Virus record (IMG/VR): IMGVR_UViG_3300045988_011437
Coordinates: 1 to 42,095 of that record
DNA: 42,095 bases
Reading direction: 5' to 3' (one strand)
From: a virus
Both the position numbers and the translations under genes were made by a program. The notes beneath the pieces are model-generated. The model saw only the letters and a program-made list of their open reading frames with translations, searched no databases and had not been told where the DNA came from. Shown piece after piece: positions 1-41,994 of the stretch (position 1 is its first letter; each line of letters begins with the position of its first letter).

Positions 1-51
1 ATGCGGCATAGGTGCCCCGTAAGGGGAGACCACAGCGAGTGACGGGGACTT
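1..51. repeat. Terminal 51-bp direct repeat identical to 42045..42095 (circular contig overlap)
   Basis: Exact 51/51 identity between the two window ends, read directly. Unique genome length is 42044 bp. Confidence 0.95.
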
Positions 52-249
52 TCCCTGAAGCGCTAAAGCAGGGCAGGACTGCAATGCCGCCCAAACAATG
101 CGCTGGCAGACCGCTGTATGGGATGCGTCTCAAATAGTCTGCTTACTGCAAAGGATTTCGCCGTGGTGGACGCTATGTATGCTTGCGGGGCACATAGCTC
201 ACGGTGGGAGAATATTCAGGTGAGGCGAAAGCCGGGTACAGACGTGCCA

Positions 250-735
250 ATGACAAAGGCCAGTGGTGGGAGGCCGGTGCGTCAGACAAGGAAGGAAGTG
301 AGCAAAATGGCAAAGGTAGGATGCCCGAGAAAATACCAAAGCGTCAAGCAAATGCAGAAAGCCATTGACGCTTACTTTGAGAGCTGCAAGGGAGAACCTA
401 TTATTGGCGATGATGGACAGCCCATTATGGACAAATACGGCAACGTCATCCTGATAGGGCAGAAGCCGCCCACGATAACGGGGCTTGCGTTGGCGTTGGG
501 GTTTACGGGCAGACAAGCGCTACTTGACTATCAGGCGCGGCCTGAGTTTACGGACACGGTCACGCGCGCGAAGTCCATGTGCGAGGAATACGCGGAGGCG
601 CGGCTGTATGACCGTGACGGCGCGAACGGCGCAAAGTTCAGCTTGAGCTGCAATTTCGGGTGGCGCGAGAAAGCGCCGGAGACTGACCGGCAGGAGATCG
701 GCGTGGTGCTGATGCCGGAGGTCAGGGATGAGTAA
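250..735 (+). CDS. terS: Terminase small subunit
   Basis: ORF 118..735. The core PPTITGLALALGF...RAKSMCEEYAEARL...GAKFSLSCNFGW looks like the HTH plus oligomerisation core of small terminases. It is the first gene after the candidate late promoter and lies upstream of terL. The true start is probably internal: ATG 250, or ATG 307 preceded by GGAAGGAAG. Confidence 0.75.
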   Translation: MTKASGGRPVRQTRKEVSKMAKVGCPRKYQSVKQMQKAIDAYFESCKGEPIIGDDGQPIMDKYGNVILIGQKPPTITGLALALGFTGRQALLDYQARPEFTDTVTRAKSMCEEYAEARLYDRDGANGAKFSLSCNFGWREKAPETDRQEIGVVLMPEVRDE

Positions 736-761
736 AGCCACACTTTAAAAGGAGGCTTATT

Positions 762-1289
762 GTGGAGAATTGGAAAGTCATACATGGCACAGATGGTGCG
801 TTAGATGTAAGCGATGCGGGTCGAGTAAGGTCGAACCTGCGCGATGGGCGCATACTTAAGCAACAAAAAGACAGTAAGGGCTATTGCCGTGTCCGTGTAA
901 CCATTAACAGGCGGAAATTCTCTCTTAAAGTACATCGTGAAGTCGCAAAGGCGTTTTTGGATAATCCACAACATTTGCCGCAGGTAAACCACATTGACGG
1001 TAATAAGGAAAACAACTCGGCATCCAATTTGGAGTGGATAAGCAATGCTGACAACGCCCGGCATGCGATTAAAACAGGGCTGTGGAGCAATGTGTTCGCG
1101 GCGTCTGAAAAAACGAACAGCGCAAGAAAAACTCCGGTTGTTGCAGAAAACGAAACAACCGGGGAACGATTGTACTTCGATAGTGTGTCGGACGCAGAAA
1201 GATATTTTAACAGCAGGCACATCTCGGATGTGCTCAAGGGGAAAAGAGATCATGTCGCCGGTCATCGGTTTTATAGGGAGGTGATGTGA
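762..1289 (+). CDS. Free-standing HNH homing-type endonuclease (NUMOD4-like N-terminus plus HNH_3-like core)
   Basis: GTG start with AAAGGAGG RBS at 748..755. N-terminus WKVIHG..DVSDAGRVRS. HNH core is NHIDGNKENNSASNLEW..NARHA. The gene is inserted between terS and terL. Confidence 0.85.
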   Translation: MENWKVIHGTDGALDVSDAGRVRSNLRDGRILKQQKDSKGYCRVRVTINRRKFSLKVHREVAKAFLDNPQHLPQVNHIDGNKENNSASNLEWISNADNARHAIKTGLWSNVFAASEKTNSARKTPVVAENETTGERLYFDSVSDAERYFNSRHISDVLKGKRDHVAGHRFYREVM

Positions 1290-1290
1290 T

Positions 1291-1389
1291 ATGAATACAC
1301 CGAGTGTCGTTTGGCAGCCACAGGCCAGGCAAGCCGTCTTTATGGCAAGGCCGGAGTATGAAGCCCTTTATGGCGGGGCAGCAGGTTAG
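1291..1389 (+). CDS. terL: Terminase large subunit, N-terminal 32 codons ending in the first half of Walker A (frame-disrupted)
   Basis: ATG 1291 with RBS GGGAGGTG. It translates MNTPSVVWQPQARQAVFMARPEYEALYGGAAG and then TAG at 1387..1389. The continuation GGGKSDAL lies in another frame. Confidence 0.7.
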   Translation: MNTPSVVWQPQARQAVFMARPEYEALYGGAAG

Positions 1390-1433
1390 GCGGCGGCAAG
1401 AGCGACGCGCTGGTCATAGAGGCGCTGCGGCAG

Positions 1434-2744
1434 GTGCATATCCCCTGGTACAAGGCGCTGATCTTGCGAAAGACGTTCCCGCAGCTGCGGGAGCTGATCG
1501 ACAAGACGCTGAACTACTACCCGCGGGTATACCCCAAGGCCAGGTATAACGGCAGCAGCCACACATGGCGGTTTCCCTCCGGGGCGCAGATCGTGTTCGG
1601 CAGCATGAACCGGCCGCAAGACAAGATACAGTATCAGGGGCAGGCCTATGACTTTATCGCCTTTGACGAGCTGACGCACTTTACGCAGGAGGAATACGAG
1701 TATCTGAAATCCCGAAACCGGCCCAACGGGCCGGGGACGCGGGTGTATATGCGCTCCACGGCCAATCCCGGCGGCGTAGGCCACGGGTGGGTGAAGGAGC
1801 GCTTCATCACGGCGGCGGCGCCGATGCAGACCATCACGGAGGAGGCTGCGTGGTACACGCCGGACGGCAGGAAGCACATAGGGCAGCAGAAGCGGATCTT
1901 CGTGCCGTCCTCGGTATTTGACAACAAGATACTGATGGAAAACGACCCCATGTACGTCCAGCGGCTGGCCAGCATGCCGGAGGCGGAGCGGAACGCCCTG
2001 CTGTACGGCAATTGGGACAGCTTCGAGGGGCAGGTGTTCACGGAGTGGCGCAACGACAGCGAGCACTATATGGACCGGAAGAACACCCACGTGATCGCGC
2101 CGTTCCGGGTGCCGGAGGACTGGGTGATCTGGTGCGGACTGGACTGGGGCTATTCCCGGCCCTTTTCCGTGGGGTGGTACGCCGTGGACCGCAACAGGCG
2201 GATGTACCATATACGGGAGCTATATGGCTGCACGGGAACGCCTAACCGGGGCGTGATGTGGGAGCCAACAAAGGTGGCGCAGGAGATACGTAGGATCGAG
2301 GACGAGGACCCCAACCTGAAGGGGAAACAGATACACCGTGTGGGCGACCCGGCCATCTGGCAAAGCGACGGCACGGAGAGCGTTGGCGCGCTGATGGAGC
2401 GGCAGCGGGTGTACTTCGAGAAGGGTGACCACGCGCGGATCAACGGCAAGATGCAGGTGCACCACCGGCTGGCCTTTGACGAGGATGGAGTGCCCATGCT
2501 GTATGTGTTCAGCACCTGCAAGCATTTTATACGGACGGTGCCGAACCTGGTCTATGACCAGACGGACGTGGAGGACATCGACACCGACGGCGAGGACCAC
2601 ATCTACGACCAGCTGCGGTATGTGTGCATGCGCAACCCCATAGGGCCGCGGGAGGAATACAGGACGGTGGAGCGGCCGTATTCCCCGCTGGAGACAGAGG
2701 ACGAGTACAGGCCCAGCCGGTACGCATTTTATCAAGTGTATTAA
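1434..2744 (+). CDS. terL: Terminase large subunit, main body (frame open from 1362; GGGKS at 1389..1403)
   Basis: 436-aa ORF with ATPase and nuclease regions: ALILRKTFPQL, YDFIAFDELTHF (Walker B-like), STANPGG, and C-terminal DGEDHIYDQLRY. It sits between the HNH gene and portal. There is no start codon in this frame before GTG 1434. Confidence 0.9.
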   Translation: MHIPWYKALILRKTFPQLRELIDKTLNYYPRVYPKARYNGSSHTWRFPSGAQIVFGSMNRPQDKIQYQGQAYDFIAFDELTHFTQEEYEYLKSRNRPNGPGTRVYMRSTANPGGVGHGWVKERFITAAAPMQTITEEAAWYTPDGRKHIGQQKRIFVPSSVFDNKILMENDPMYVQRLASMPEAERNALLYGNWDSFEGQVFTEWRNDSEHYMDRKNTHVIAPFRVPEDWVIWCGLDWGYSRPFSVGWYAVDRNRRMYHIRELYGCTGTPNRGVMWEPTKVAQEIRRIEDEDPNLKGKQIHRVGDPAIWQSDGTESVGALMERQRVYFEKGDHARINGKMQVHHRLAFDEDGVPMLYVFSTCKHFIRTVPNLVYDQTDVEDIDTDGEDHIYDQLRYVCMRNPIGPREEYRTVERPYSPLETEDEYRPSRYAFYQVY

Positions 2745-2754
2745 GGAGGAGCGC

Positions 2755-4689
2755 ATGGAGAGATACGGTATCCCCGGCATCGTACCGGAGGAGCAGGACA
2801 TGGCGCCGGAGATGGCGGCCATGCTGCTGCAGCGGACAGAGCAGACGCCCACCATCACGGACCGGGACGTGGAGCGGGGCATCGACCTGCTGACGAAGTA
2901 CAAGGACGGCAAGAGCAACCTGGAAAACCGCATCGTCAACGACGAGCTGTGGTGGGAGCTGCGGCACTGGGAGGGCATCGGTCAGAGCAAGGCAAAGCGG
3001 GTGGACAAAAGCGGCAAGGAGGTCACGTCTACGCCGCCGGAGCCCAAGCCGTCCTCTGCGTGGCTGTTCAACACCATTCAGAACAAGCACGCCGACGCGA
3101 TGGACAACTACCCGGAGCCGGTGGTATTGCCCCGGGAGCGCAGCGACGAGCAGAGCGCCAAGACGCTGAGCCAGATATTGCCGGTGGTGCAGGAGTACAA
3201 CCACTTCGAGCAGGTGTACTCCGACAACTGGTGGGAGAAGCTGAAGCACGGCACGGCGGTGTACGGCATTTTCTGGGATCCGCAGAAGGACAACGGACTG
3301 GGCGACATCGAGATACGGGACATCGATCTGCTGAAGCTGTTTTGGGAGCCGGGCATCACGGACATCCAGAAGAGCCGGAACCTGTTTATCGTAGACCTGG
3401 TGGACAACGACCTGCTGGACAGCGAGTACCCGCAGCTGAAGGGCAAGCAGAAGGGCAAGGTCGTGGACGTGAAGGAGTACATCTACGACGACAACGTGGA
3501 CACCAGCGACAAGAGCGTGGTGGTGGACTGGTATTACAAGGTCAAGACGCCGGATGGCAGGACGGCGCTGCACTACATCAAATTCGTGGGCTCCACGCTG
3601 CTGTACGCCAGCGAGAACGACCCGGAGTACCGGGAGCGGGGCTTTTATGACCACGGTATGTATCCGGTGGTGCTGGACGTGATGTACCCGGAGAAGGGTA
3701 CCCCCATCGGCTTCGGCTATGTGGCCATCTGCAAGGACCCGCAGCTGTACATCGACAAGCTGAGCGCCAACATTCTGGAGAACGCCATGATGGCCACGAA
3801 AAAGCGTTTCTTTGTCAGCGACACCACGGCCATCAACGAGCAGGAGTTTTTGGACTGGAACCGGCCGCTGGTGCATGTGAACGGGCCGCTGGACGACGGG
3901 CGCATACAGGAGATCGTGACGCAGCCGCTTTCCGACATCTATGTGACTGTGGCGCAGATGAAGATCGAGGAGATGAAGGACACGGCGGCCAACCGTGATG
4001 TGAACTCCGGCGGTACCACCAACGTGACCGCGGCGGCGGCCATTGCAGCTTTGCAGGAGGCGGGCAACAAGGCCAGCCGTGACATGATCGCCGCCAGCTA
4101 TCGGGCGTATACGCAGATCAACACACTGTGCGTGGAGCTGATGCGGCAGTTTTACGACCTGAGCCGCAGCTTCCGCATTACAGGTGAGGGCAGCGAGTAC
4201 CAGTTTATCGACTTCGACAACACCGGCTTGCAGGACCAGGTGACCGGACTGGATACGATGGGCAATCCCATGTTCCGCCGGCCGGTGTTTGATTTGAAGA
4301 TCAAGGCGCAGAAGAAAAACCCCTTTAGCCGCATGGAGCAGAACGAGCGGGCCAAGGAGCTGTACGCAATGGGCTTTTTCGCGCCGGAGAACGCGCAGGC
4401 CAGTTTGATCGCGCTGGACATGATGGACTTTGAGGGCATACAGACGGTGAAGGAGAAGGTCATGCAGGGGCAAACGCTGCTGAACATGGTGATGCAGATG
4501 AGCCAGCAGTTGGCGGCGATCACCGGCGTTCTCATGCCCCAGGAGGAGACGCAGGCAGGCGGCGGCACCAATGCCGCAGAGAGCGGCGGAGGCGGCGGGA
4601 ACGGCCTTGCAAGCGGCATCATGGAGGCGCAGACGCCCATGACCGGGTACGGGCAGGCGCTTGCCAAGCGGAGCACACCCAGCGTATGA
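2755..4689 (+). CDS. Portal protein
   Basis: 644 aa, immediately downstream of terL with a GGAGG RBS. Size and position are typical. The acidic/Gly-rich C-terminal tail is common in portals. Confidence 0.8.
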   Translation: MERYGIPGIVPEEQDMAPEMAAMLLQRTEQTPTITDRDVERGIDLLTKYKDGKSNLENRIVNDELWWELRHWEGIGQSKAKRVDKSGKEVTSTPPEPKPSSAWLFNTIQNKHADAMDNYPEPVVLPRERSDEQSAKTLSQILPVVQEYNHFEQVYSDNWWEKLKHGTAVYGIFWDPQKDNGLGDIEIRDIDLLKLFWEPGITDIQKSRNLFIVDLVDNDLLDSEYPQLKGKQKGKVVDVKEYIYDDNVDTSDKSVVVDWYYKVKTPDGRTALHYIKFVGSTLLYASENDPEYRERGFYDHGMYPVVLDVMYPEKGTPIGFGYVAICKDPQLYIDKLSANILENAMMATKKRFFVSDTTAINEQEFLDWNRPLVHVNGPLDDGRIQEIVTQPLSDIYVTVAQMKIEEMKDTAANRDVNSGGTTNVTAAAAIAALQEAGNKASRDMIAASYRAYTQINTLCVELMRQFYDLSRSFRITGEGSEYQFIDFDNTGLQDQVTGLDTMGNPMFRRPVFDLKIKAQKKNPFSRMEQNERAKELYAMGFFAPENAQASLIALDMMDFEGIQTVKEKVMQGQTLLNMVMQMSQQLAAITGVLMPQEETQAGGGTNAAESGGGGGNGLASGIMEAQTPMTGYGQALAKRSTPSV

Positions 4690-4964
4690 CAGAGGTGACG
4701 ATGCACCGCGGGGACAGCTGCTCTGTCAGGTGCAGGGGACACGCCACGGGCGCACCGGACGTTTGTGCGGCGGTAAGCTGCCTCATGTACACGGCGGCGG
4801 GGTGGCTGCACAACACGCAGGAGGCGGAGCTGGTGTATGAAAAGCTGGACAGCGGGGATGCGTACCTGCGTTGGCACGGCGGGGAATGGCTGTACGACCT
4901 GCTGAAGATCGGCTTTTTGCAGCTGGAAAAAGCGGCGCCGAAAAAAATTTCTGTAAAATTTTGA
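4686..4964 (+). CDS. prp: Prp-family cysteine protease (ribosomal-processing protease homologue, DUF464-like)
   Basis: 92 aa with an ATGA overlap with portal. Motif GHATGAPDVCAAVSCL carries the His and Cys arranged as in Prp proteases. Confidence 0.8.
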   Translation: MTEVTMHRGDSCSVRCRGHATGAPDVCAAVSCLMYTAAGWLHNTQEAELVYEKLDSGDAYLRWHGGEWLYDLLKIGFLQLEKAAPKKISVKF

Positions 4965-4989
4965 AAATTCCACTTTTAAGTGGAAAAAT
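4961..4989 (+). promoter_or_regulatory. Candidate late promoter, copy A: TTGAAA-17 nt-AAAAAT with palindrome TTCCACTT-TT-AAGTGGAA in the spacer
   Basis: Read directly. The identical architecture recurs at 41899..41927. The -10 is weak because it lacks the first T, which suggests activator dependence. Confidence 0.45.
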
Positions 4990-5010
4990 CAGAAAAAGCA
5001 ATGGTACCGT

Positions 5011-5047
5011 GGGAGGTGCAGAGGCGAACTCTGTACCTCCCTTTTGT
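5011..5047 (+). terminator. Conserved 12-bp stem-loop plus T-tract (intrinsic terminator or antitermination target), copy A
   Basis: GGGAGGTGCAGA / loop GGCGAAC / TCTGTACCTCCC, then TTTTGTT. It starts 22 nt after the -10, the same spacing as the copy at 41949..41994. Confidence 0.55.
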
Positions 5048-5146
5048 TCCGGGCGGCGGGGCGGCGGTTATGAGACACCGCTTCGCCGCAGGAACGGGGA
5101 CGCCACACGGGAGCGACATGCCCGCGCATTATTAGGAGGACAAGAT

Positions 5147-6103
5147 ATGTACCTTTTTGACATGAGCCTTTGCCTGTTTGACGGCGAGGGCGGCGGGGCG
5201 GCAGCTCCCGCAGCACAGGGCGAGACACAAGCGAGCACTGGTACCACCCGCCAGGGCAAAACGGGCGCACTGAGCGACGTGAAGTACGGCAAACAGCCGG
5301 AGAGCGAAGCACAGACGGAGCAGCAGCCTGACGCCGGGGCTGAGGAGAAGGTGAAGGACGTGGAGACCGCGTCCGACGCGCTGGAGGCCAAGAAAAAGGC
5401 TTTCAGGGAGTTGATCAACGGGGAGTACAAGGACCTGTACACCCAGGAAACGCAGCGGATGATCGACCGGCGCTTTAAGGAGGCGCGGGAGAACGAGAAG
5501 CGGATGAAATCCTACCAGCCGGTGCTGGATACGCTGATGGAGCGTTACGGCATCGACGACGGGGACGCCGCGCGGCTGCTGGAGGCCGTGGACAACGACC
5601 ACGCCTACTGGAGCGAGGCCGCCGAGGAGGCGGGCATGAGCGAGGAGCAGTACAAGGAGTTCCGCCGGCTGAAGCGGGAGAACGCCGAGCTGCTGCGGAG
5701 CCAGCAGGAGCAGCAGCAAAACGAGTTTTTCCGGGCGCAGGGCGAGAAGTGGTACAAGGAGGCGGAGGCCATGAAGGGCAACCCCCTGTACCAGGGCTTC
5801 GACCTGATGCAGGAGCTGCAGAACCCGGAGTTTCTGAGCCTGCTGAAGGCCGGGACACCGGTGGAGCACGCCTACCGCGTGCTGCATTTCGACGAGCTGA
5901 TGGGCAGCGCGGTACAGGCCGCGGCCGCCAGCACGGAAAAGAAGGTGGCAGACTCCGTCCGCGCAAAGGGCAATCGTCCCAACGAAAACGGCACCAACTC
6001 CAACAGCGCGTTCGTAACAAAGACGGATCCCTCAAAGCTGACAAGGGCAGACTTTGAGGAGATCGAGCGGAGAGTGGCAAGAGGCGAACGCATTTCGTTC
6101 TGA
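5147..6103 (+). CDS. Scaffolding protein (putative)
   Basis: ATG 5147 with TAGGAGGA RBS. The 318-aa protein is E/K/Q-rich and predicted helical, and lies directly upstream of the major capsid gene. N-terminus MYLFDMSLCLFDGEGG carries the shared LxLFDG motif. Confidence 0.65.
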   Translation: MYLFDMSLCLFDGEGGGAAAPAAQGETQASTGTTRQGKTGALSDVKYGKQPESEAQTEQQPDAGAEEKVKDVETASDALEAKKKAFRELINGEYKDLYTQETQRMIDRRFKEARENEKRMKSYQPVLDTLMERYGIDDGDAARLLEAVDNDHAYWSEAAEEAGMSEEQYKEFRRLKRENAELLRSQQEQQQNEFFRAQGEKWYKEAEAMKGNPLYQGFDLMQELQNPEFLSLLKAGTPVEHAYRVLHFDELMGSAVQAAAASTEKKVADSVRAKGNRPNENGTNSNSAFVTKTDPSKLTRADFEEIERRVARGERISF

Positions 6104-6148
6104 TCTCTCACGGCTCCGCTGCGATATGCTGAAAGGAGCTATGAAACT

Positions 6149-7432
6149 ATGATGAATACCATTTGTGACCTGTACCTGATGCCGGTGGTGCTGAACCTGT
6201 TTGACGGCAACACCAACACCACCCTGGACGCCGGCTTGTCCGACGAGATGAAGACGTATTACTCTATGCGTCTTATCAATCTGGCCGAGCCGGAGCTTAT
6301 CCATGACCAGTTTGGCCAGAAGCATCCTATCCCCAAGAACAGCGGCAAGACCATCGAGTTCCGCAAGTACGACAGCCTGCCCAAGGCGCTGGTGCCCCTG
6401 ACCGAAGGTGTGACCCCCGCCGGCCAGAAGCTGAGCATGGGCGTCATCCGTGCGACCATCAAGCAGTACGGTGGTTACATCGAGCTGTCCGACATCCTGG
6501 AGCTGACCGCTATTGACAACAACCTGGTGCAGGCCACCCGCCTGCTGGCCTCTCAGGCCGGCCGTACCTCCGACACCATCACCCGCGAGGTGCTGGCAGG
6601 CGGCACCAACGTGGTGTATGCCGGCGGCGCCAAGGACAGAAGCGAGCTGGTGGGCGGCGACGCCACTGAGGCCAACAACAAGTATCTGAGCGTGGACGAC
6701 ATCCGCAAGGCCGTCCGTGCGCTGAAGGTCATGAACGCCCAGAAGATCAACGGCTACTTCGCGGGTATCATTCACCCCGATACCGCCTATGACCTGATGA
6801 GCGACAAGAAGTGGGTGGACGTGAAGACCTACTCCGACCCCGACGGTATCTATGAAGGCGAGATCGGCAAGATCGAGGGCGTCCGTTTCGTAGAGACCAC
6901 CGAGGCAAAGATCTTCCACGCCCCCGACCTGGTGATCGCCGACGGCAGCAACGCCGCTGTTCGTGACCTGACCGTCAAGAGCGCGTCCGGCAAGGTCATC
7001 ACCGTCACCGAGGCCCTGAGCACCAACCAGGCTGCCGCGCTGACCGGCCGCGAGATCCTGGTGGGCAGCGAGCTGATGGAGGTGGCGTCCGCGGCCGCAG
7101 GTGCTGCCGGTGCTGCGACCATCACCGTGAAGGACAGCCCCGCAACCACGCCTGCCGCGTCTACCGTGATCTATCCCGGTGAGGGCGGCGCAAAGGGCCG
7201 CGACGTGTATTCCACCCTGATCGTGGGCGCCGACGCATACGGCGTGACCGAGCTGGAGGGCGGCGGTCTGCAGCACATCGTGAAGCAGCTGGGCTCCTCC
7301 GGCACCGCTGACCCGCTGAACCAGCGCGCCACCGCCGGCTGGAAGCTGACCAAGGTGGCCGAGCGACTGGTGGAGCAGTACATGGTGCGTATCGAGTCCG
7401 CCTCTACCTTTGAGAGCGGCCTGATGAACTGA
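6149..7432 (+). CDS. Major capsid protein (HK97 fold, N4-gp56-like family)
   Basis: 427 aa. The region PKNSGKTIEFRKYDSLPKALVPLTEGVTPAGQKL...IKQYGGYIELSDILELTAID..TRLLASQAGRTSDTITRE resembles the N4-gp56 capsid family as I recall it. Position after scaffold fits. Confidence 0.85.
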   Translation: MMNTICDLYLMPVVLNLFDGNTNTTLDAGLSDEMKTYYSMRLINLAEPELIHDQFGQKHPIPKNSGKTIEFRKYDSLPKALVPLTEGVTPAGQKLSMGVIRATIKQYGGYIELSDILELTAIDNNLVQATRLLASQAGRTSDTITREVLAGGTNVVYAGGAKDRSELVGGDATEANNKYLSVDDIRKAVRALKVMNAQKINGYFAGIIHPDTAYDLMSDKKWVDVKTYSDPDGIYEGEIGKIEGVRFVETTEAKIFHAPDLVIADGSNAAVRDLTVKSASGKVITVTEALSTNQAAALTGREILVGSELMEVASAAAGAAGAATITVKDSPATTPAASTVIYPGEGGAKGRDVYSTLIVGADAYGVTELEGGGLQHIVKQLGSSGTADPLNQRATAGWKLTKVAERLVEQYMVRIESASTFESGLMN

Positions 7433-7439
7433 CACACAA

Positions 7440-7465
7440 GCGGAGGGGGCATCGTCCCCCTCCGC
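7440..7465 (+). other. Perfect 10-bp GC hairpin after the capsid gene, no T-tract (RNA-stabilising element or weak attenuator)
   Basis: GCGGAGGGGG / CATCGT / CCCCCTCCGC, read directly. Confidence 0.4.
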
Positions 7466-7488
7466 CCCGGACATGAGGAGTGATAAAC

Positions 7489-7875
7489 ATGGCAGAAAAG
7501 AAGCAGAGAACGCCTGAGGAAATGGAACAGGCATTGGCCGCGGCCAACGAGGCGCTGGAGCAGGCCAAGAAGGAGGCTGAGGACGCCAAGGAGGCCGCAA
7601 AGGCCGCCGAGGAGGTCATGCGTGGCATGTCTGTCAGAGAGGCGGACGACGGCATGGTCTCGTTCTACGCTTTCAAGGACGACGACAGATACAAGGACGA
7701 CATCGTGGTGGGGCTGAACGGCAAGGTGTACCGCATCCAGCGGGGCAAGCACGTCCGTATCCCGCGGCCGGTATACAACATCATCCGCCGGTCGATGGCC
7801 CAGGACGCGGCCACAGCGGAGATGCTGGAGGAAAAGGCCCGGGAGTATGAGGCGGTAAAGCAGCAGCTGAACTGA
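7489..7875 (+). CDS. Hypothetical head-associated protein (coiled-coil N-terminus)
   Basis: ATG 7489 lies 8 nt after GAGGAG. 128 aa. Position directly after the capsid gene. Confidence 0.6.
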   Translation: MAEKKQRTPEEMEQALAAANEALEQAKKEAEDAKEAAKAAEEVMRGMSVREADDGMVSFYAFKDDDRYKDDIVVGLNGKVYRIQRGKHVRIPRPVYNIIRRSMAQDAATAEMLEEKAREYEAVKQQLN

Positions 7876-7914
7876 CAACTGCATACCACCGCGAGACCCA
7901 AAAACGGCTGTGAC

Positions 7915-7969
7915 ACGGCGCAGCAAGCTGAGAAGGACGTTATCCTTCCTGCTTGCTGTGCCGTTTTTT
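7915..7969 (+). terminator. Strong intrinsic terminator (long compound hairpin plus T6)
   Basis: ACGGCGCAGCAAGC ... inner GAAGGA/TCCTTC ... GCTTGCTGTGCCGT, followed by TTTTTT. Confidence 0.75.
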
Positions 7970-7989
7970 CACGGCAGAAAGGAGCGGAC

Positions 7990-9090
7990 ATGACGAGGAC
8001 GATCCCTCTGAAAATCCAAAATGAGTATATCGCCGGGGACAAGGTGCTTATCGGCGCGGCTGGCAGCCACAACGACGTTGTGTTGCGGATGGAGTTCTCC
8101 CCGCTGTGGGAGGGGCTGACCAAGACGGTGCAGTTCCGGGACGCGTTGGGTGAAAAGACCATCGAAACGCTGCTGACGGCGGACCTGCTGGAGAAGAACA
8201 GCACCACGGTGTATATGGTCCCGGTACCCAACGGCGCAAAGAAATACGCCGGGGAGATGACGCTGGCCGTAAAGGGCGCGGCGGTATCCGGCGATAAGGA
8301 AACGCGGGCCACTACGGCGGTGCACGGCGCGTTCACCGTTGGCGAGAGCAAGTGGGACACCAGTGCGGAGACGGAGCAAGACGTGCCGCCCACGCAGGCC
8401 GAGCAGTTGCAGAGCCAGATCGACGCGGTTCTTGGCACGATAAACGGCGCGGCGGCATCGGCCAATGCGGCGGCGGCATCGGCCAATGCGGCGGCGGCAT
8501 CGGCGCAGAGCGCGGCGGAGAGCGCGGAGACCGCCACGGCGGCGGCCGGAAGCATAGGTAATGCCGTGACGGCGGCGGCTAAAAGCGCAGCGGCGGCAGC
8601 GGCCAGCGAAAAAAGCGCGGCGTACTGGGCCGGACAGGCACAGCAGGCCGCAGGCGGCGGCGTGGTGAGCTTCAACGGACGCGCAGGAAGCGTTGTACCA
8701 CAGGCGGGAGATTATGACAAGGGAATGGTCGGCCTGGGCAACGTGGACAACACCAGCGACCTTGCAAAGCCCATTTCCACGGCCACACAGACGGCATTGA
8801 ACGCCAAACAGGGCAGCATCATCAAGGGCTCTGTGACGCTGACGGTGGCGGGCTGGGTGGCGGACGGCGACGACTGGAAGCAGCCGGTGACCATTGCCGG
8901 CGGCGCAGCGGGAAAGCAAGTGGATCTGGAGGCGGACAAGACGGCCATCAAGCAGATGCTGGAGGACGGCACCAGCGCCCTGTACATCGCCAATGAAAAC
9001 GGGACGTTCACCGCCCATGCGGTGGGAGAGAAACCTACGGCGGCGCTGACGCTGCAGACCACCATGTACGACGTGAAGGGGGCGGTGTAA
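7990..9090 (+). CDS. Tail fibre / tail spike-like protein with Ala-rich repeat region
   Basis: 366 aa. Motif GLGNVDNTSDLAKPISTATQTAL is a motif I recognise from phage tail fibres. It has an Ala-rich coiled linker and follows the head genes. Confidence 0.6.
   Translation: MTRTIPLKIQNEYIAGDKVLIGAAGSHNDVVLRMEFSPLWEGLTKTVQFRDALGEKTIETLLTADLLEKNSTTVYMVPVPNGAKKYAGEMTLAVKGAAVSGDKETRATTAVHGAFTVGESKWDTSAETEQDVPPTQAEQLQSQIDAVLGTINGAAASANAAAASANAAAASAQSAAESAETATAAAGSIGNAVTAAAKSAAAAAASEKSAAYWAGQAQQAAGGGVVSFNGRAGSVVPQAGDYDKGMVGLGNVDNTSDLAKPISTATQTALNAKQGSIIKGSVTLTVAGWVADGDDWKQPVTIAGGAAGKQVDLEADKTAIKQMLEDGTSALYIANENGTFTAHAVGEKPTAALTLQTTMYDVKGAV
8449..8505 (+). repeat. 21-bp tandem repeat, about 2.7 copies, encoding AAASANA repeats
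   Basis: GCGGCGGCATCGGCCAATGCG occurs at 8449..8469 and 8470..8490, with a partial third copy. Confidence 0.85.
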
Positions 9091-9408
9091 ATGGATAACA
9101 GATTTGGGAGATACACCACGCCCACCCATACGTTCACAGTGCCGCTGGACACCAGCAAGATCACGCTGCTTAGCATTGCCTATGAGCAGCGGGGGGCTTT
9201 GGTGGTGGAAAAGCGGCTGGAGGACGCAGTGATGGGTGAGCAGACCATCTCGGTGCGCCTTACGGAGCAGGAGACGGCGCGGTTTGCGGCAAGGACGCCG
9301 GTACACATTCAGCTGCGCGTGGGCATGGGGAGCACGCGGCTGAACTCCGGCGTGATCACCGCCAGCGTAGACGACGTGCTGAGAGAGGGTGAACTGGATG
9401 GAGTGTAA
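9091..9408 (+). CDS. Hypothetical virion protein
   Basis: 105-aa ORF abutting the fibre gene stop, in the structural block. Confidence 0.55.
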   Translation: MDNRFGRYTTPTHTFTVPLDTSKITLLSIAYEQRGALVVEKRLEDAVMGEQTISVRLTEQETARFAARTPVHIQLRVGMGSTRLNSGVITASVDDVLREGELDGV

Positions 9409-9667
9409 CGTTCAGTTTCGCTCGGACAACTGTTTGTTCGGCACGGTGTTTGAAACGGACGACAGTTTTTTTACGGCGGACTTCGGCGTGATGACCGGGG
9501 TGACGCCGGAGCTGTACGACGGCGGCTATGAGCTGTGGCCGGCGCTTACGGACGAGACACTACAGACAAAGGACAGACTGATGGCAAACGACGTAATGCT
9601 GCACGCCATACCGCGGTACGTGGTAGATAACGCGGCGGGCGGCAGGACTATGACCATAGGAGGGTAA
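9398..9667 (+). CDS. Hypothetical virion protein
   Basis: ATG 9398 lies about 8 nt after GAGAGAGGG. It overlaps the previous gene by 11 nt. The ORF track starts at GTG 9389. Confidence 0.5.
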   Translation: MECNVQFRSDNCLFGTVFETDDSFFTADFGVMTGVTPELYDGGYELWPALTDETLQTKDRLMANDVMLHAIPRYVVDNAAGGRTMTIGG

Positions 9668-9671
9668 ACAC

Positions 9672-10259
9672 ATGCCTGAGACAAAGTACAATTCCAAGAT
9701 CGTATTTTACGGCGAGACACTTATGGACCTGACCGGGGACAACGTAACGGCGGATAAGCTGCTGGCCGGCACTACGGCCCACGACAAGACCGGCGCACCG
9801 GTGACCGGCACTTGTACCTTCGACGCGGACACAAAGGATGCCACCGCCACAGCGGCGGAGATCCTGACCGGGAAGACCGCCTATAAGAACGGACAGAAGG
9901 TGACCGGCACCATGCCCAACAAGGGTGCGGTGGCGCTGAAGGTGACGCAGAAAGGCATCCCGGTGAGCATCCCCGCAGGCTACCACGACGGCAGCGGCAC
10001 GGCGGGCATCGCCGACACGGAGGAGGCGAAGCTCATCGCCGGCAACATCAAGAGCGGCGTGGAGATCCTGGGCGTGACCGGCACCTACGCCGGTGAGCTG
10101 GTGAACGGCCAGAAAAAGACCGTGACACCGGCAAAGGCGCAGTTCTCCGTGCTGCCGGACGAGGGTTATGACCACCTGACCGAGGTGGTGGTGAACGGTG
10201 TGCCCATTGCCTACGCTGACAATCCTGCTGGCGGTCAGACCGTGACGATCGGAGCGTGA
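9672..10259 (+). CDS. Fibre-like structural protein (paralogous N-terminus with 10265..10972)
   Basis: N-terminus KIVFYGETLMDLT matches RVEFFGETLMDVT of the next gene. Repeats of the type AAEILTGKTAYKNGQKVTGT / IKSGVEILGVTGT are present. Confidence 0.55.
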   Translation: MPETKYNSKIVFYGETLMDLTGDNVTADKLLAGTTAHDKTGAPVTGTCTFDADTKDATATAAEILTGKTAYKNGQKVTGTMPNKGAVALKVTQKGIPVSIPAGYHDGSGTAGIADTEEAKLIAGNIKSGVEILGVTGTYAGELVNGQKKTVTPAKAQFSVLPDEGYDHLTEVVVNGVPIAYADNPAGGQTVTIGA

Positions 10260-10264
10260 TGTAA

Positions 10265-10972
10265 GTGGCGAACAGCCGGGTAGAGTTCTTCGGTGAGACC
10301 CTGATGGATGTCACTGACACGACGGCCACCCCGGCGAGTGTCACTGCGGGTAAGGTCTTCTATCAGGCGGACGGACAGCGGGCGGTGGGTACGGCAGCGT
10401 ACCAGCCGAAGGTCTTTGAGGAGATCGTGACGCTGACCACCACCTGGGAAGGGACCGGCCCCTACACGCAGACCGTGATGACCGGGCAGGACACTCATTA
10501 CCGGGTGGACGTGACGCCGACGCCGGAGCAGCTGGCGCAGATCGTGTCGGACGGCGTGACCATCATGCAGGCCAACAACGTGGACGGAAGCATCGTAGTC
10601 ACCTGCGTGGGCGCTGTGCCCAGCGTGGCGCTGGCCATGCGGCTGGTGTTCGTATATACGGAGAACGGCGCAAGCGAGCCGCCGGATCCTGCGGAGTACG
10701 AACCGAAGGTGATACTGATCTCCATTCCCCTGACTGCCACGTGGACGGAGGTGGACGGCAAGTATGAGCAGACCATCGTGGTGGGCGAAAATCCCAAGTA
10801 CATGTACGACCCGCAGCCCACTGTGGCGCAGATAGAGCAGCTGCAGGAGGACGGCGTACAGGCGATGGTGTTCGTGAACACAGACGGAACGGTAAAGGCC
10901 GTGTGTATAGGCGGTACGCCCTCCACGGCCATGACGATACAGGGTACAAAGACGATGGTGTACTCGAATTGA
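10265..10972 (+). CDS. Fibre-like structural protein with internal tandem domain duplication
   Basis: GTG start. There are two domains of about 85 aa, each beginning Y(Q/E)PKV. They share LT(T/A)TW...Y.QT...DGV..M...N.DG....C.G..PS.A and lie at about 10400..10660 and 10697..10950. Confidence 0.55.
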   Translation: MANSRVEFFGETLMDVTDTTATPASVTAGKVFYQADGQRAVGTAAYQPKVFEEIVTLTTTWEGTGPYTQTVMTGQDTHYRVDVTPTPEQLAQIVSDGVTIMQANNVDGSIVVTCVGAVPSVALAMRLVFVYTENGASEPPDPAEYEPKVILISIPLTATWTEVDGKYEQTIVVGENPKYMYDPQPTVAQIEQLQEDGVQAMVFVNTDGTVKAVCIGGTPSTAMTIQGTKTMVYSN

Positions 10973-10982
10973 GGAGGAAAAT

Positions 10983-11807
10983 ATGAGTTCAATTATCGGT
11001 AGGCCAATAATGGTAGGGGGTGCTGGCGGCTATAAAATGGCATTTGCCAGTCTGACACCACAATCCGGCGTGACTTATACAGACGGATTATCCAGCCTTA
11101 GACCAGCCGTTCTATCCCTTATGTCTGCGGCCATATCCAACAATAGAGATATTACCAGTGCGACCCTGACTGTATATGTGGATTATGGCGACATCCACCG
11201 TAAGATTGATGTGGGCGATCAGGTAACGATTGCACTGAATGGTGTCAATTACGCATTTGACGTGATTGGCTTTAACCATGATACGCTGACAACATCTACC
11301 GCGTATGGTGCTACCACCAAGACCGGCAAGGCTGGTATCACATTCCAGATGCATGACCTGTTTGCAACGACCTATGTGATGAACAGTTCTAACACAAACA
11401 GCGGCGGCTGGAAGAGTAGCGCTATGCGCACCTCGACGATGGCGACTATGAAGGGGTATCTGCCCGCAGCATGGCAGACAGCCATCAAGCCGGTCAATAA
11501 AGTTTCCGGCACTGGCGGCGGTTCTTCAAGCGGTACGGAAACAGTCTCCGACAGCTGCTTCCTGCTGGCCGAAATCGAAATCTTTGGTTCCACCACCTAT
11601 TCCGTTTCTGGAGAAGGAACGCAGTACGCATATTACAAGGCAGGCAACTCGAAGGTGAAGAACAAAGGTGGCTCCGCTAACGCCTGGTGGGAGCGTTCTC
11701 CTCGTTCTGGCAGCAGCTTTCGTTTCTGTAGTGTCAACAGCAACGGCGGCGCCGGCATTGGCGGCGCCGACGGCGGTTATGACGTCGCTTTCGGCTTCTG
11801 CGTCTAA
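10983..11807 (+). CDS. Putative receptor-binding protein (DUF6273-like C-terminal region)
   Basis: 274 aa. Motif ANAWWERSPRSGSSFRFCSVNSNG resembles the WWLRSP signature of DUF6273-type surface domains. The gene is visibly less GC-rich than its neighbours. Confidence 0.6.
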   Translation: MSSIIGRPIMVGGAGGYKMAFASLTPQSGVTYTDGLSSLRPAVLSLMSAAISNNRDITSATLTVYVDYGDIHRKIDVGDQVTIALNGVNYAFDVIGFNHDTLTTSTAYGATTKTGKAGITFQMHDLFATTYVMNSSNTNSGGWKSSAMRTSTMATMKGYLPAAWQTAIKPVNKVSGTGGGSSSGTETVSDSCFLLAEIEIFGSTTYSVSGEGTQYAYYKAGNSKVKNKGGSANAWWERSPRSGSSFRFCSVNSNGGAGIGGADGGYDVAFGFCV

Positions 11808-11904
11808 CAAAACAATTGAAAGAAAGGATGACTACACAATATCGTCCGCATGGGAGCCGGGTGCTACGGGCACGGAAAGCCTGTGGGCGGAAGTAACAGA
11901 GTAA

Positions 11905-11934
11905 AAAGGGTGCGGGGAGAATTACTCCCCCCGC
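11905..11934 (-). terminator. Putative terminator of the small minus-strand gene
   Basis: Minus strand reads GCGGGGGGAG TAATT CTCCCCGC (bulged stem), then ACCCTTTTTA. It overlaps the last codons of the gene. Confidence 0.45.
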
Positions 11935-12047
11935 TGGATGTAGGCTTCTTCGGCATCAAGCTGTGCCTGTTTGAGCGCAGCAACGGCCTTTTCAAGCTGG
12001 GCAATGGCGTCGGTGACGGCGTTAAACAGGGTGAAATACTCGGGCAT
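11922..12047 (-). CDS. Small helical protein (41 aa) antisense to the late operon
   Basis: ATG at 12047..12045 is preceded by a perfect AAAGGAGGTG RBS. Product is MPEYFTLFNAVTDAIAQLEKAVAALKQAQLDAEEAYIQRGE, followed by a hairpin and T-run. Confidence 0.5.
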   Translation of the reverse strand: MPEYFTLFNAVTDAIAQLEKAVAALKQAQLDAEEAYIQRGE

Positions 12048-12148
12048 GGGAACACCTCCTTTCTGCAAGCAGGATAGCATAGGTGGCGTGTCAGAAACGG
12101 TCGAAGGGTGTCGAGGGGCAAAAATAATTTGAGAGGAGAACGCGGCGA

Positions 12149-12457
12149 ATGGAACCGTGGGTACAGCAGATCGCCGTACCGCTGGCGGTAGCGGTGCTGA
12201 CAAGCAGCGGTTTGTGGGCACTGGTATCGAAGCGGGCGGACAAGAATAACGCAGAGCGGAAGATGCTGGTGGGGCTGGCGCATGACCGCATCATCCATCT
12301 GGGCATGGTGTACGTGACAAGGGGGTACATCACGCAGGACGAGTACGAAAACCTCAATGACTATCTGTACCAGCCGTATGAAAAGATGGGCGGCAACGGC
12401 AGCGCAAAACGGGTCATGGAGGAAGTAAGGAAGCTGCCCATCAAGAGAGAGGCGTAA
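12149..12457 (+). CDS. Single-pass membrane protein, first gene of the lysis cassette (holin-associated?)
   Basis: GAGAGGAG RBS. N-terminal TM segment IAVPLAVAVLTSSGLWALV. Adjacent to the holin and endolysin genes. Confidence 0.55.
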   Translation: MEPWVQQIAVPLAVAVLTSSGLWALVSKRADKNNAERKMLVGLAHDRIIHLGMVYVTRGYITQDEYENLNDYLYQPYEKMGGNGSAKRVMEEVRKLPIKREA

Positions 12458-12475
12458 AGCCGGAAAGGAAGAAAT

Positions 12476-12697
12476 ATGAAGCTGAACAACAAGACCTATG
12501 ACATCATCAAGTGGGTGGTTATGATCGTGCTGCCCGCCCTTAGTGCCCTGTACGTGGGACTGGGCGGCATCTGGGGCTGGCCGTACATCGAGCAGGTGGC
12601 GGGGACTATCTCCTGCATTACCGTGTTCCTTGGCGCGCTGCTGGGCATTTCCAGCGCCAGCTACAAGAAATCTACGCTGGATGAGGAGGCCATGTAA
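12476..12697 (+). CDS. Holin (two TM segments, Dp-1-type pattern)
   Basis: 73 aa. YDIIKWVVMIVLPALSALYVGLGGIWGWP plus a second TM segment ISCITVFLGALLGIS. The next gene starts immediately after the stop codon. Confidence 0.75.
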   Translation: MKLNNKTYDIIKWVVMIVLPALSALYVGLGGIWGWPYIEQVAGTISCITVFLGALLGISSASYKKSTLDEEAM

Positions 12698-13381: not shown

Positions 13382-13390
13382 GGTGAAGAC

Positions 13391-15596: not shown

Positions 15597-15607
15597 GGAG
15601 GATGCCT

Positions 15608-16522: not shown

Positions 16523-16532
16523 GGAGGGCGCG

Positions 16533-41484: not shown

Positions 41485-41665
41485 TATCGTGCGTGCGCGG
41501 TTTCTGACGATGCCGGAGCCGTTCCCCGGTGCCGGGGCGACAAAGGACAATCTGTCCCCTGTGCGCAAGGCGACGGTGGTGTATGTGCATCCGAAGGGGC
41601 GGTACATCGTGGCGGAGTGCGGCGGGGTGCGGGAGACGTTCTTCCCGGAGGAGGTGCTGACATGA
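41471..41665 (+). CDS. Hypothetical small protein
   Basis: 64-aa ORF overlapping both neighbours. Confidence 0.45.
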   Translation: MQKGDIVRARFLTMPEPFPGAGATKDNLSPVRKATVVYVHPKGRYIVAECGGVRETFFPEEVLT

Positions 41666-41895
41666 GCGAATTCCCGGAACGGCTGAGAAAGCTGCGGGAG
41701 AGAAAGAGGCTGAAGCGGTATGTGCTGTCGGAGCGCTGTGGGCTGAATTCAGATGCTATACGCCGGTACGAGCTGGGGACGGCGAAGCCGACGATGGATG
41801 CGCTGAAGAGTATAGCGGATGAATTCGGCGTGTCGGTGGACTATCTGATGGGCAGGACGGACTATCCCTGCGTGGTAGATGTTGCCGAAAAATAA
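41662..41895 (+). CDS. XRE-family HTH protein, last early gene directly upstream of the late cassette
   Basis: FPERLRKLRERKRLKRYVLSERCGLNSDAIRRYELG..KPTMDALKSIADEFGVSVDYLMGR. Confidence 0.7.
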   Translation: MSEFPERLRKLRERKRLKRYVLSERCGLNSDAIRRYELGTAKPTMDALKSIADEFGVSVDYLMGRTDYPCVVDVAEK

Positions 41896-41898
41896 TTT

Positions 41899-41927
41899 TT
41901 GAAAATTCCACTTAAAAGTGGAAAAAT
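41899..41927 (+). promoter_or_regulatory. Candidate late promoter, copy B: TTGAAA-17 nt-AAAAAT with palindrome TTCCACTT-AA-AAGTGGAA
   Basis: Same sequence and spacing as 4961..4989, except that the central dinucleotide of the palindrome is inverted. Confidence 0.45.
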
Positions 41928-41948
41928 TGAAAAAACGCACTTTATCAT

Positions 41949-41994
41949 GGGAGATGCAGGGGCGAACTCTGCATCTCCATTCTTTTTCTTTTCC
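41949..41994 (+). terminator. Conserved stem-loop plus T-tract, copy B
   Basis: GGAGATGCAG / GGGCGAACT / CTGCATCTCC, then ATTCTTTTTCTTTT. It starts 22 nt after the -10, as in copy A. Confidence 0.55.

What the first reader, a model, noticed from the sequence alone, without database searches (positions are those of the whole stretch)
4961..5147. Duplicated promoter-palindrome-hairpin cassette, copy inside the head-gene block, with compensatory base changes
The 182-bp gap between prp and the scaffold gene is not a plain spacer.

Sequence, in order:
- TTGAAA (4961..4966), which overlaps the prp stop codon.
- A 17-nt spacer made almost entirely of the inverted repeat TTCCACTT-TT-AAGTGGAA.
- AAAAAT (4984..4989).
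- Exactly 22 nt later, a 12-bp stem-loop (5011..5041) followed by TTTTGTT.

The same architecture, with identical spacings, recurs at 41899..41994 ahead of terS. Between the copies, the stem changes G6:C to A:T and a G-T wobble becomes G-C. The loop core GGCGAAC is unchanged, so the pairing appears to be under selection.

A palindrome between the -35 and -10 followed by an immediate terminator resembles the lambda PR'/QBE/tR' layout. I infer activator- or antiterminator-dependent late transcription that is re-initiated or boosted ahead of the scaffold and capsid genes.

A second weakly conserved block, GGGGA-N2-CCACA-N2/3-GAG-N-GAC, lies at 5096..5117 and at 23..43.
Basis: partly seen in the sequence, partly recalled or inferred. 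Interest (0 to 1): 0.72.

Follow-up and report, generated by a model that had tools for sequence, protein, structure and literature searches.

The report
Duplicated regulator-dependent phage late promoter cassette
The repeated element is real and is most likely a phage late-gene promoter, switched on by a small DNA-binding protein encoded beside one copy and nested inside a terminator that blocks incoming transcription; this is a variation on a known way phages time head-gene expression, not a lambda-style antitermination switch.

Summary
A ~95-nt cassette occurs twice in a circular temperate-phage genome: 4955-5048 (between Prp and the scaffold gene) and 41893-41990 (between a 77-aa XRE-family gene and terS).

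Comparison with more than 250 related loci moves the promoter. It is a TAnnnT-type hexamer (5005-5010 TACCGT with a TG extension; 41943-41948 TATCAT). It lies 19-20 nt after the 18-bp palindrome and 0-2 nt before the hairpin.

This places the palindrome at about -40.5, a class II activator position. It places the start site inside the 5' arm of the hairpin. Late transcripts would then lack the full terminator stem, while transcripts arriving from upstream are stopped.

XRE homologues (down to about 69% identity in fetched loci) always sit directly upstream of such a palindrome. The palindrome changes symmetrically (TTCCAC to TTCCCC) in diverged lineages. Lineages with another regulator lack it.

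Both facts argue against a lambda Q-like mechanism.

Verdict: an XRE-type variant of the Ltr-style late activator and promoter module, duplicated ahead of scaffold and capsid. No experiment supports this yet.

The parts
41662..41895 (+). 77-aa XRE-family (HTH_3) gene. It is the last gene of the rightward early cluster and the candidate late-promoter regulator.
   Evidence: Pfam HTH_3 E 2e-10; PHROG transcriptional regulator. No RinA or ArpU match. Homologues of 69-100% identity in fetched loci always end 4-23 nt before a cognate palindrome upstream of terS.
41887..41905 (+). A/T-rich, A-tract block upstream of the palindrome (UP-like, about -68 to -50).
   Evidence: Sequence. Conserved in both copies and in relatives. 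The UP-element function is inferred.
41906..41923 (.). Perfect 18-bp palindrome TTCCACTT-AA-AAGTGGAA, the proposed operator for an XRE dimer. Its centre lies about -40.5 from the predicted start.
   Evidence: only two sites in the window; 83 of 84 hairpin-anchored instances keep it exactly. A symmetric change to TTCCCC/GGGGAA occurs in diverged XRE lineages.
41943..41948 (+). Proposed real -10 hexamer TATCAT of the terS late promoter. Predicted start at about 41954-41956.
   Evidence: T51, A52 and T56 are invariant in alignment A2. The tool lists TGGAAA-18-TATCAT as promoter-like. The same position holds a -10-like hexamer in all lineages.
41950..41990 (+). 12-bp hairpin (41950-41978) plus T-rich run. 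Intrinsic terminator for the early operon; its 5' arm contains the predicted late start site.
   Evidence: -22.8 kcal/mol, z -6.8. It is the only strong + strand terminator-like site between the ~30.4-kb early promoters and the window end. G-U wobbles favour + strand RNA.
4941..4967 (+).
4968..4985 (.). Second copy of the palindrome, TTCCACTT-TT-AAGTGGAA.
   Evidence: Found at this site only in phages that carry the XRE gene.
5002..5010 (+). Proposed extended -10, TGG-TACCGT, of the scaffold/capsid late promoter. Predicted start at about 5016-5018.
5011..5048 (+). 13-bp hairpin (5011-5041) plus TTTTGTT. Terminator for the terS-to-prp unit, spanning the predicted start of the next unit.
   Evidence: -26.8 kcal/mol, z -6.4. 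RNA starting at 5017 keeps only a 7-bp stem (-9 kcal/mol), 6 nt away from the U-run. It is the only strong + strand terminator-like site in 1-20000.
4984..4989 (+). Probably just the A-rich right flank of the operator.
   Evidence: Listed as promoter-like with TG. Its last T is lost in several lineages.
5096..5117 (+). Function unknown.
   Evidence: The scaffold-leader version CACGGGAGCGAYATGCCCGCG is conserved in 58 related loci. Similarity between the two leaders is weak.
4686..4964 (+). Prp-family cysteine protease gene, the last gene of late unit 1.
   Evidence: Pfam Peptidase_Prp.
5147..6103 (+). Scaffold-position gene, the first gene of late unit 2. It is followed by the major capsid gene at 6149-7432.
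   Evidence: Position and RBS; capsid Pfam hits.
118..735 (+). terS (GP3_package), the first gene of late unit 1.

Best explanation
Each cassette is an activator-dependent late promoter nested in an intrinsic terminator.

**Proposed mechanism (inferred; no step tested by experiment)**
1. The small XRE-family protein is made as the last product of the early operon.
2. It binds as a dimer to the 18-bp palindrome, whose centre lies about 40.5 bp upstream of the start site and overlaps the -35 region. This is the position from which lambda CI activates PRM (my own knowledge).
3. It recruits the host sigma-A polymerase to a promoter that has only a -10 element: TATCAT before terS, TGnTACCGT before the scaffold gene.
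4. The GC-rich hairpin begins 0-1 nt after that -10, so transcription starts about 6 nt inside its 5' arm.
5. Polymerases arriving from upstream (the early operon at copy 2, the terS-to-prp unit at copy 1) transcribe the whole hairpin and terminate.
6. Polymerases that start at the late promoter make only the inner 7 bp and read on.

**Consequence**
The copy before the scaffold gene splits the late region into two units under the same regulator. One is a low-demand packaging/portal unit. The other is a high-demand scaffold/capsid/tail unit.

**What is shown**
The conserved geometry and the co-occurrence of regulator and site.
For: **1. The conserved -10**
- T51, A52 and T56 of alignment A2 are invariant across 30 variants, in an otherwise divergent stretch.
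- In eight cassettes from six or more XRE lineages the order is the same: palindrome, 19-20 nt, nAnnnT hexamer, 0-2 nt, hairpin. The hairpins belong to about five unrelated sequence types.
- In 69 of 69 TTCCCC-type instances the hexamer lies exactly 19 nt after the palindrome.
- Hexamers matching TATAAT at 4 of 6 positions or fewer all carry a TG extension. Those matching at 5 of 6 or more never do. That is 8 vs 6 sequence types, Fisher p = 3e-4.

**2. Sister lineages**
- Type B: a different small HTH gene, the palindrome GTTGCA-N8-TGCAAC at the same distance, TGATAACGT abutting the same hairpin, and no TTGAAA/AAAAAT.
- Type C: both genomic sites share another motif, followed after 18-19 nt by TATGCT or TATGAT.

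**3. Link between regulator and site**
- XRE is present in 87 of 89 type A loci, 0 of 35 type B and 0 of 16 type C.
- The scaffold-site palindrome occurs only with XRE: 17 vs 2 in type A loci, against 0 vs 19 in other loci, Fisher p = 1e-8. The loci are not phylogenetically independent.
- Both half-sites change symmetrically in diverged XRE lineages.
- In each fetched locus with 66-84% identity whose downstream DNA is held, the XRE homologue is the last gene before terS or the terminase. The head modules downstream are unrelated.

**4. The terminator**
- It is strong as + strand RNA, and the wobble pairs are G-U on the + strand.
- RNA starting at the predicted site keeps only a -9 to -10 kcal/mol stem, separated from the U-run.

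**5. Precedent**
In staphylococcal and enterococcal phages the order is regulator gene, binding repeats immediately after it, a terminator, then the terS promoter. Only the part of the spacer next to the regulator gene is swapped between phages (PMC3753634).
Against: - There are no transcript data. The start site is inferred from consensus geometry.
It is kept in most lineages, so a second promoter is not excluded.
- Regulator and terS-site palindrome are physically adjacent, so their co-occurrence could partly reflect linkage.
- Two XRE phages carry the non-palindrome element at the scaffold site.
- Activation rather than repression rests on position and logic only.
Confidence: 0.66

Rival explanations
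1. A sigma-A promoter TTGAAA-17-TGnAAAAAT carries the palindrome in its spacer as a loading site. Its transcripts (start about 4996 and 41934) end at the hairpin as a ~52-nt RNA. They read through only if a phage factor (the XRE protein or another) makes the polymerase terminator-resistant, as lambda Q does at PR'/tR'. In this reading the conserved TAnnnT hexamer at about +10 to +15 would be the sigma-dependent pause signal needed for loading.
For: - Both hexamers with 17-nt spacing and a TG are present in both copies.
- The order promoter, palindrome, -10-like hexamer, terminator resembles lambdoid late promoters (my own knowledge of lambda and phage 82).
- The layout is kept in most XRE lineages.
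Against: - The essential last T of this -10 is lost (AAAAAC or AAAACG) in the L004/L116 scaffold-type copies, in the GACAAT and AACAAT lineages, and in L356. The -35 G is lost in L332.
- L356 has a perfect TATAAT at the other position and no terminator. L336 and L337 have the terminator before the operator.
- Type B has no such promoter but keeps the same hairpin.
- The model does not explain why about five unrelated hairpin types all start 0-2 nt after the conserved hexamer.
- A perfect palindrome suggests a symmetric dimer, unlike known Q sites.
- A 77-aa protein that is little more than an HTH domain is an unlikely processive antiterminator. No Q-, N- or NusG-like gene was found.
Confidence: 0.1
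2. Both promoters work, and the XRE protein is a switch. Without it, the upstream promoter fires and yields only a short terminated RNA. When bound, the protein occludes that promoter (its site lies in the spacer) and activates the downstream one, whose transcripts escape the terminator.
For: Both promoter-like arrangements score 9 of 12 at copy 2. Both are retained in many lineages. The geometry allows one site to do both jobs.
Against: The upstream promoter is dispensable in several lineages. No function is evident for the short RNA, and it matches no Rfam family.
Confidence: 0.12
3. The XRE protein is a repressor that sits on an otherwise constitutive late promoter, or the palindrome is bound by another phage or host protein.
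For: Most small XRE proteins are repressors. The best NCBIfam match, below its cut-off, is the RstR repressor family.
Against: - The gene overlaps the preceding early gene by 4 nt and lies at the end of the lytic early operon. That is where late activators sit.
- The promoters lack a -35 element.
- Another XRE gene of the phage (31760-32278) is shared at about 97% identity by lineages with and without the palindrome, so it is not the specific partner.
- The palindrome occurs nowhere in the immunity region.
Confidence: 0.07

Closest known systems
Ltr-type late activators of Gram-positive temperate phages (RinA, ArpU, LtrC, DUF1492) and their terS promoters (PMC3753634, PMC3152322)
   Same: - A small regulator gene is the last gene of the early cluster, directly upstream of terS.
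- The binding site lies immediately after the regulator's stop codon.
- A terminator isolates early from late transcription.
- Each regulator and its cognate site are swapped together between phages, while the rest of the spacer stays the same.
   Different: - The protein is an XRE/HTH_3 protein of 67-84 aa, not one of the four Ltr families.
- The site is one perfect palindrome, not direct repeats.
- The terminator is nested over the start site rather than lying upstream of the promoter.
- A second copy lies inside the late region, whereas Ltr phages are reported to use a single late promoter.
Lambda CI at PRM (class II activation by a Cro/C1-type HTH dimer)
   Same: A dimeric HTH protein of the same fold class sits on a dyad site centred about 41-42 bp upstream of the start, next to a weak or absent -35 (my own knowledge; geometry).
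   Different: The biological role differs (late genes, not repressor maintenance). There is a single operator, not three cooperative ones. Contact with sigma is untested.
Phage P1 Lpa and its 11 late promoters (PMC10695390)
   Same: The late promoters have a -10 and a conserved inverted repeat as the activator site. They are scattered at several places in the late region. The lpa gene lies just upstream of the packaging genes.
   Different: In P1 the repeat lies between the -35 and -10 positions (about -22, from my own knowledge). Here the comparative data place it at about -40. The proteins are unrelated, and the host is Gram-negative.
Lambda Q / PR' / QBE / tR'
   Different: The terminator is absent or placed upstream in related lineages. 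The site is palindromic. No Q-like protein is present.

Membership tests
Ltr superfamily late activator module | Regulator gene is the last gene of the early cluster, immediately upstream of terS | tested here: met
   XRE at 41662-41895, terS at 118-735 of the circular genome. The same synteny holds for homologues in front of four different terminase/portal types.
Ltr superfamily late activator module | Protein belongs to the RinA, ArpU, LtrC or DUF1492 sequence families | tested here: not met
   Only HTH_3, HTH_31 and HTH_19 in Pfam. NCBIfam gives only sub-threshold XRE-type hits.
Ltr superfamily late activator module | Specific binding site immediately distal to the regulator gene, swapped together with the regulator | tested here: met
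   The palindrome starts 11 nt after the stop codon. Type B phages replace the gene and the site together and keep the downstream spacer. Binding itself was not tested.
Ltr superfamily late activator module | Regulator is necessary and sufficient to activate terS transcription | not testable with these tools
   Needs reporter or knockout experiments.
Lambda Q-type antitermination (PR'/QBE/tR') | Functional promoter whose transcripts include the whole downstream terminator | tested here: not met
This is comparative inference, not a transcript map.
Lambda Q-type antitermination (PR'/QBE/tR') | Terminator downstream of the late start site is a constant part of the system | tested here: not met
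   L356 has no terminator. L336 and L337 have it upstream of the operator.
Lambda Q-type antitermination (PR'/QBE/tR') | Q-family (or other known) antiterminator protein is encoded | tested here: not met
   Pfam, PHROG and NCBIfam scans of the regulatory and early ORFs that were examined found none. Many of these ORFs have no annotation.
Intrinsic (factor-independent) terminator | Stable GC-rich hairpin directly followed by a U-run on the transcribed strand | tested here: met
   -26.8 and -22.8 kcal/mol, followed by TTTTGTT and ATTCTTTTT. The + strand is more stable than the - strand.
Known RNA families (Rfam 15) | Match at the gathering score | tested here: not met
   No hit in the whole window. 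Only sub-threshold noise in the two cassettes.

The most novel reading that the evidence does not exclude
A 77-aa XRE protein acts as a minimal Q-like antiterminator. It loads at a palindrome in the spacer of a constitutive promoter, while sigma pauses the polymerase on the conserved TAnnnT hexamer. The polymerase then reads through the terminator about 50 nt from the start. This would be a lambdoid late switch built from an unrelated and much smaller protein, in abundant Gram-positive gut phages.
Probability: 0.08. Interest if true: 0.75.

Novelty: new variant of a known kind. Interest (0 to 1): 0.42.

Why it matters
- The phage is very common in human gut metagenomes: 8000 capsid homologues were scored, and the best 120 are 99-100% identical.
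- Its relatives in species-representative genomes are mostly Clostridia, Oscillospiraceae and Faecalibacterium. Late-gene control is essentially unstudied for phages of these hosts.
- If the model holds, it adds an XRE-type family to the known late activators.
- It gives a sequence rule for finding late promoters in these phages: XRE gene, palindrome, 19 nt, then a -10.
- It describes a compact design in which a promoter is insulated by a terminator whose 5' arm contains the start site. That design could be reused as a genetic part.
- It also explains how one head-gene family separates low-copy packaging genes from high-copy scaffold and capsid genes.

Tried and rejected
- **Rfam and tRNA scans.** Nothing at gathering score and no tRNA. 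Relaxed scans of the two cassettes gave only sub-threshold noise, for example RT-3 at 21.6 bits against a cut-off of 40.5.
- **INPHARED phage records.** No useful relative.
- **Capsid protein search.** Saturated by near-identical sequences, so it gave no diversity.
- **Covariance model of the cassette.** Searched over 80 related prophage loci. Only L116 carries the element, so it is lineage-restricted and gives almost no covariation.
- **GC hairpin GGGCGGGGCTTCGGCTCCGCCC as an anchor for new lineages.** It returned mostly unrelated phages in which the same sequence is an ordinary terminator.
- **Host identification through encoding contigs.** Only metagenome scaffolds were returned.
- **The hairpin loop as a boxB-like GNRA pentaloop for an N-type protein.** Dropped because the loop varies, including at its first base.
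- **A promoter downstream of the hairpin.** No candidate in either copy.
- **The other XRE genes as the palindrome binder.** 31760-32278 is shared by lineages with and without the palindrome. The immunity-region genes lie outside the fetched loci and remain untested.
It gives only a weak sigma-region-4-like hit and could not be linked to the cassette.
Full report
**1. The observation**

The window is a complete, circularly closed temperate-phage genome. Bases 1-51 repeat at 42045-42095 (D17).

Its gene order:
- terS at 118-735
- an HNH/NUMOD4 endonuclease gene
- terL
- a P22-type portal gene
- prp at 4686-4964
- a scaffold-position gene at 5147-6103
- the major capsid gene at 6149-7432
- further structural and tail genes, with lysis genes by position
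- an integrase and repressors on the minus strand
- a rightward early cluster that ends with a 77-aa XRE-family gene at 41662-41895

The motif TTGAAAATTCCACTTNNAAGTGGAAAAAT occurs exactly twice, at 4961 and 41899, with none expected by chance. The repeat extends over about 95 nt at 77% identity, from an A/T-rich block to the T-run after a hairpin. The hairpins fold at -26.8 and -22.8 kcal/mol, with z about -6.5. The description is therefore correct. The small corrections are listed in the observation check.

**2. How widespread the cassette is**

Scanning IMG/VR for the palindrome gave more than 115 stretches. Most are close relatives. Many carry two copies 4.5-4.8 kb apart, at the same two genomic positions.

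When instances are anchored on the hairpin instead, 83 of 84 have the exact palindrome upstream.

Among 80 related prophages from species-representative genomes (capsid identity 40-79%; Clostridia, Oscillospiraceae, Faecalibacterium), only L116 carries the cassette. The element therefore belongs to one phage lineage. Within that lineage there is essentially one compensatory change in the stem.

**3. Where the promoter is**

(a) In the 13 nt before the hairpin, the two copies differ at 8 positions. T, A and the final T of a hexamer are nevertheless invariant in all 30 variants. The hexamer is TATCAT at 41943-41948 and TACCGT, preceded by TG, at 5002-5010.

(b) XRE homologues of 84-69% identity were fetched with their surroundings. 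They lie in front of terS genes of unrelated head modules. Each is followed by:
- the palindrome (TTCCAC-type or TTCCCC-type)
- 19-20 nt of unrelated sequence
- a -10-like hexamer (GACAAT, TAGAAT or TACAAT)
- after 0-2 nt, a hairpin that is not homologous to the one in the window

A scan for the TTCCCC-type palindrome found 73 stretches. In 69 of 69 related instances the hexamer lies 19 nt after the palindrome. In all 63 interpretable cases a homologue of the same XRE family ends a few nucleotides before it.

Weak hexamers (4 of 6 matches to TATAAT or fewer) always carry a TG extension. Strong ones never do.

- The last T of AAAAAT becomes C or G in the L004/L116 scaffold-type copies, in the GACAAT and AACAAT lineages, and in L356.
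- The G of TTGAAA is lost in L332.

With the conserved hexamer as the -10, the start site falls at about 5017 and 41955. That is 6-7 nt inside the 5' arm of the hairpin. The palindrome is then centred at -40.5.

**4. Sister lineages**

*Type B* (35 viral contigs):
- The XRE gene is replaced by another small HTH gene (sigma-region-4/HTH_23-like).
- The TTCCAC palindrome is replaced by GTTGCA-N8-TGCAAC at the same distance.
- The -10 is TGATAACGT, abutting the same hairpin.
- The stem changes A to G at two positions, giving G-U pairs that are tolerated only in + strand RNA.

*Type C*:
- It has neither palindrome.
- Its terS site and its scaffold site share a different 30-nt motif (AATAAAAAWATTTTTCGTTTKAGGGGTGCG).
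- TATGCT or TATGAT follows after 18-19 nt.

Two independent lineages thus place a matched pair of elements at the same two positions. This is what a pair of co-regulated late promoters would look like.

*More distant relatives of the head module* also have a transcriptional boundary in the prp-scaffold gap. There, a terminator is followed by a -10-like sequence (L122, L123, L127).

**5. Regulator and site**

- The late XRE gene is present in 87 of 89 type A loci and in none of 51 type B or C loci.
- The scaffold-site palindrome lies 5 kb from the gene. It is found only in XRE phages: 17 of 17 loci that span both sites.
- The alternative scaffold element S2 occurs with type A (2 loci), type B (1) and type C (18).
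- The half-sites change symmetrically (A to C on the left, T to G on the right) in diverged XRE lineages.
- Another XRE gene of the phage (31760-32278) is shared by palindrome-positive and palindrome-negative lineages, so it is not the specific partner.

**6. The terminator**

- Between the strong early promoter near 30.4 kb and the end of the genome, the hairpin at 41950 is the only strong + strand terminator-like site.
- In the first 20 kb, the hairpin at 5011 is the only one.
- RNA that begins at the predicted late start retains a 7-bp stem (-9 to -10 kcal/mol), 6 nt away from the U-run. It should not terminate.
- The constant 0-2 nt between the -10 and about five unrelated hairpin types is what this nested design requires. 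A promoter-proximal attenuator would not require it.
- In L336 and L337 the terminator lies before the operator. In L356 there is none, and the -10 is a perfect TATAAT.

**7. Mechanism**

[quoted passage not shown] It binds the palindrome at -40.5 and activates a promoter that lacks a -35 element. The hairpin stops incoming transcription but not late transcription.

Copy 1 makes scaffold, capsid and downstream genes a second unit under the same regulator.

What is shown is geometry, conservation and co-occurrence. Binding, activation and the start sites are inferred.

Rivals:
It can reinterpret the conserved hexamer as a sigma-dependent pause signal. It fails on the lineages that lack its promoter or the terminator.
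- A two-promoter switch.
- A repressor role for the XRE protein.

**8. Comparison with known systems**

The logic matches the Ltr paradigm of staphylococcal and enterococcal phages: a regulator gene, a site immediately after it, a terminator, then the terS promoter, with regulator and site swapped as a module (PMC3753634).

It also resembles phage P1, where Lpa acts on an inverted repeat at 11 late promoters and the lpa gene lies next to the packaging genes (PMC10695390).

The protein is not a member of the Ltr families. The site is a single palindrome. The terminator is nested over the start. There is a second internal copy. I therefore class this as a new variant of a known kind.

**9. The second block**

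The scaffold-leader sequence CACGGGAGCGAYATGCCCGCG is conserved in all relatives of this head module, including those without the cassette. Its resemblance to the terS leader in the window is weak. I could assign no function to it. It is not part of the duplicated unit, which ends at the T-run.

Noticed in passing
window 1290-1440 (terL start), with 762-1289: terL is split over two reading frames. 1290-1388 encodes MNTPSVVWQPQ...YGGAAG and then a stop. The Walker A motif GGGKS follows in another frame (ORF 1434-2744). Compared with a relative that has an intact 480-aa TerL and no HNH gene (L266), the window and L267 both carry the HNH/NUMOD4 gene and a 5-nt insertion just before Walker A.
   Followed up: partly
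window 5147-5190 and 6149-6210: The N-termini of the scaffold protein (…SLCLFDG) and the capsid protein (…VLNLFDG) share LxLFDG. Relatives show LNLQLFA-like motifs at the same place. This fits cleavage by the phage Prp protease.
   Followed up: no
L333 3646-3721, L336 2846-2919; tRNA-like stretches in L241, L250, L260, L331 and L196: Relatives carry a tRNA gene (Thr or Gln, called by ARAGORN) or a tRNA-like sequence that ARAGORN does not call, in the long leader between the late promoter and terS. The window has lost it: ATGCGGCATAGG at 1-12 looks like the joined flanks.
   Followed up: partly
window 42011-42032: The hairpin GGGCGGGGCTTCGGCTCCGCCC (UUCG loop) in the terS leader occurs verbatim in more than 50 unrelated viral contigs from many environments. 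There it usually lies right after a stop codon and before a T-run. In the window no T-run follows it.
   Followed up: partly
window 39833-40171, 40437-40895, 41092-41484: Three paralogous Cys-rich ORFs share a VVRCKDCK motif (DNA repeat family D8) just upstream of the XRE gene. They match no family.
   Followed up: no
window 23730-23981: An 83-aa ORF between the tail and lysis genes gives a weak sigma-factor-region-4-like hit (phrog_3512, E 9e-5). An ORF of the same length sits at the same position in relatives L266, L268 and L269; homology was not checked. Speculatively, it could control the lysis genes.
   Followed up: partly
L241-L265 (both sites), e.g. L247 3469 and 7885: A sister lineage uses a different shared motif (AATAAAAAWATTTTTCGTTTKAGGGGTGCG, then 18-19 nt, then TATGMT) at the terS and scaffold sites. 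No regulator gene is adjacent, and its recognition factor is unknown.
   Followed up: partly
window 1-42 (= 42045-42086): A 13-codon ORF (MRHRCPVRGDHSE) with a strong GGAGGGAG ribosome-binding site lies in the terS leader. This may be chance.
   Followed up: no
L338 2501-3216: The 45%-identity homologues of the XRE protein are chromosomal. Three tandem paralogues lie next to a Tex-like gene, which is not a phage late-gene context.
   Followed up: no
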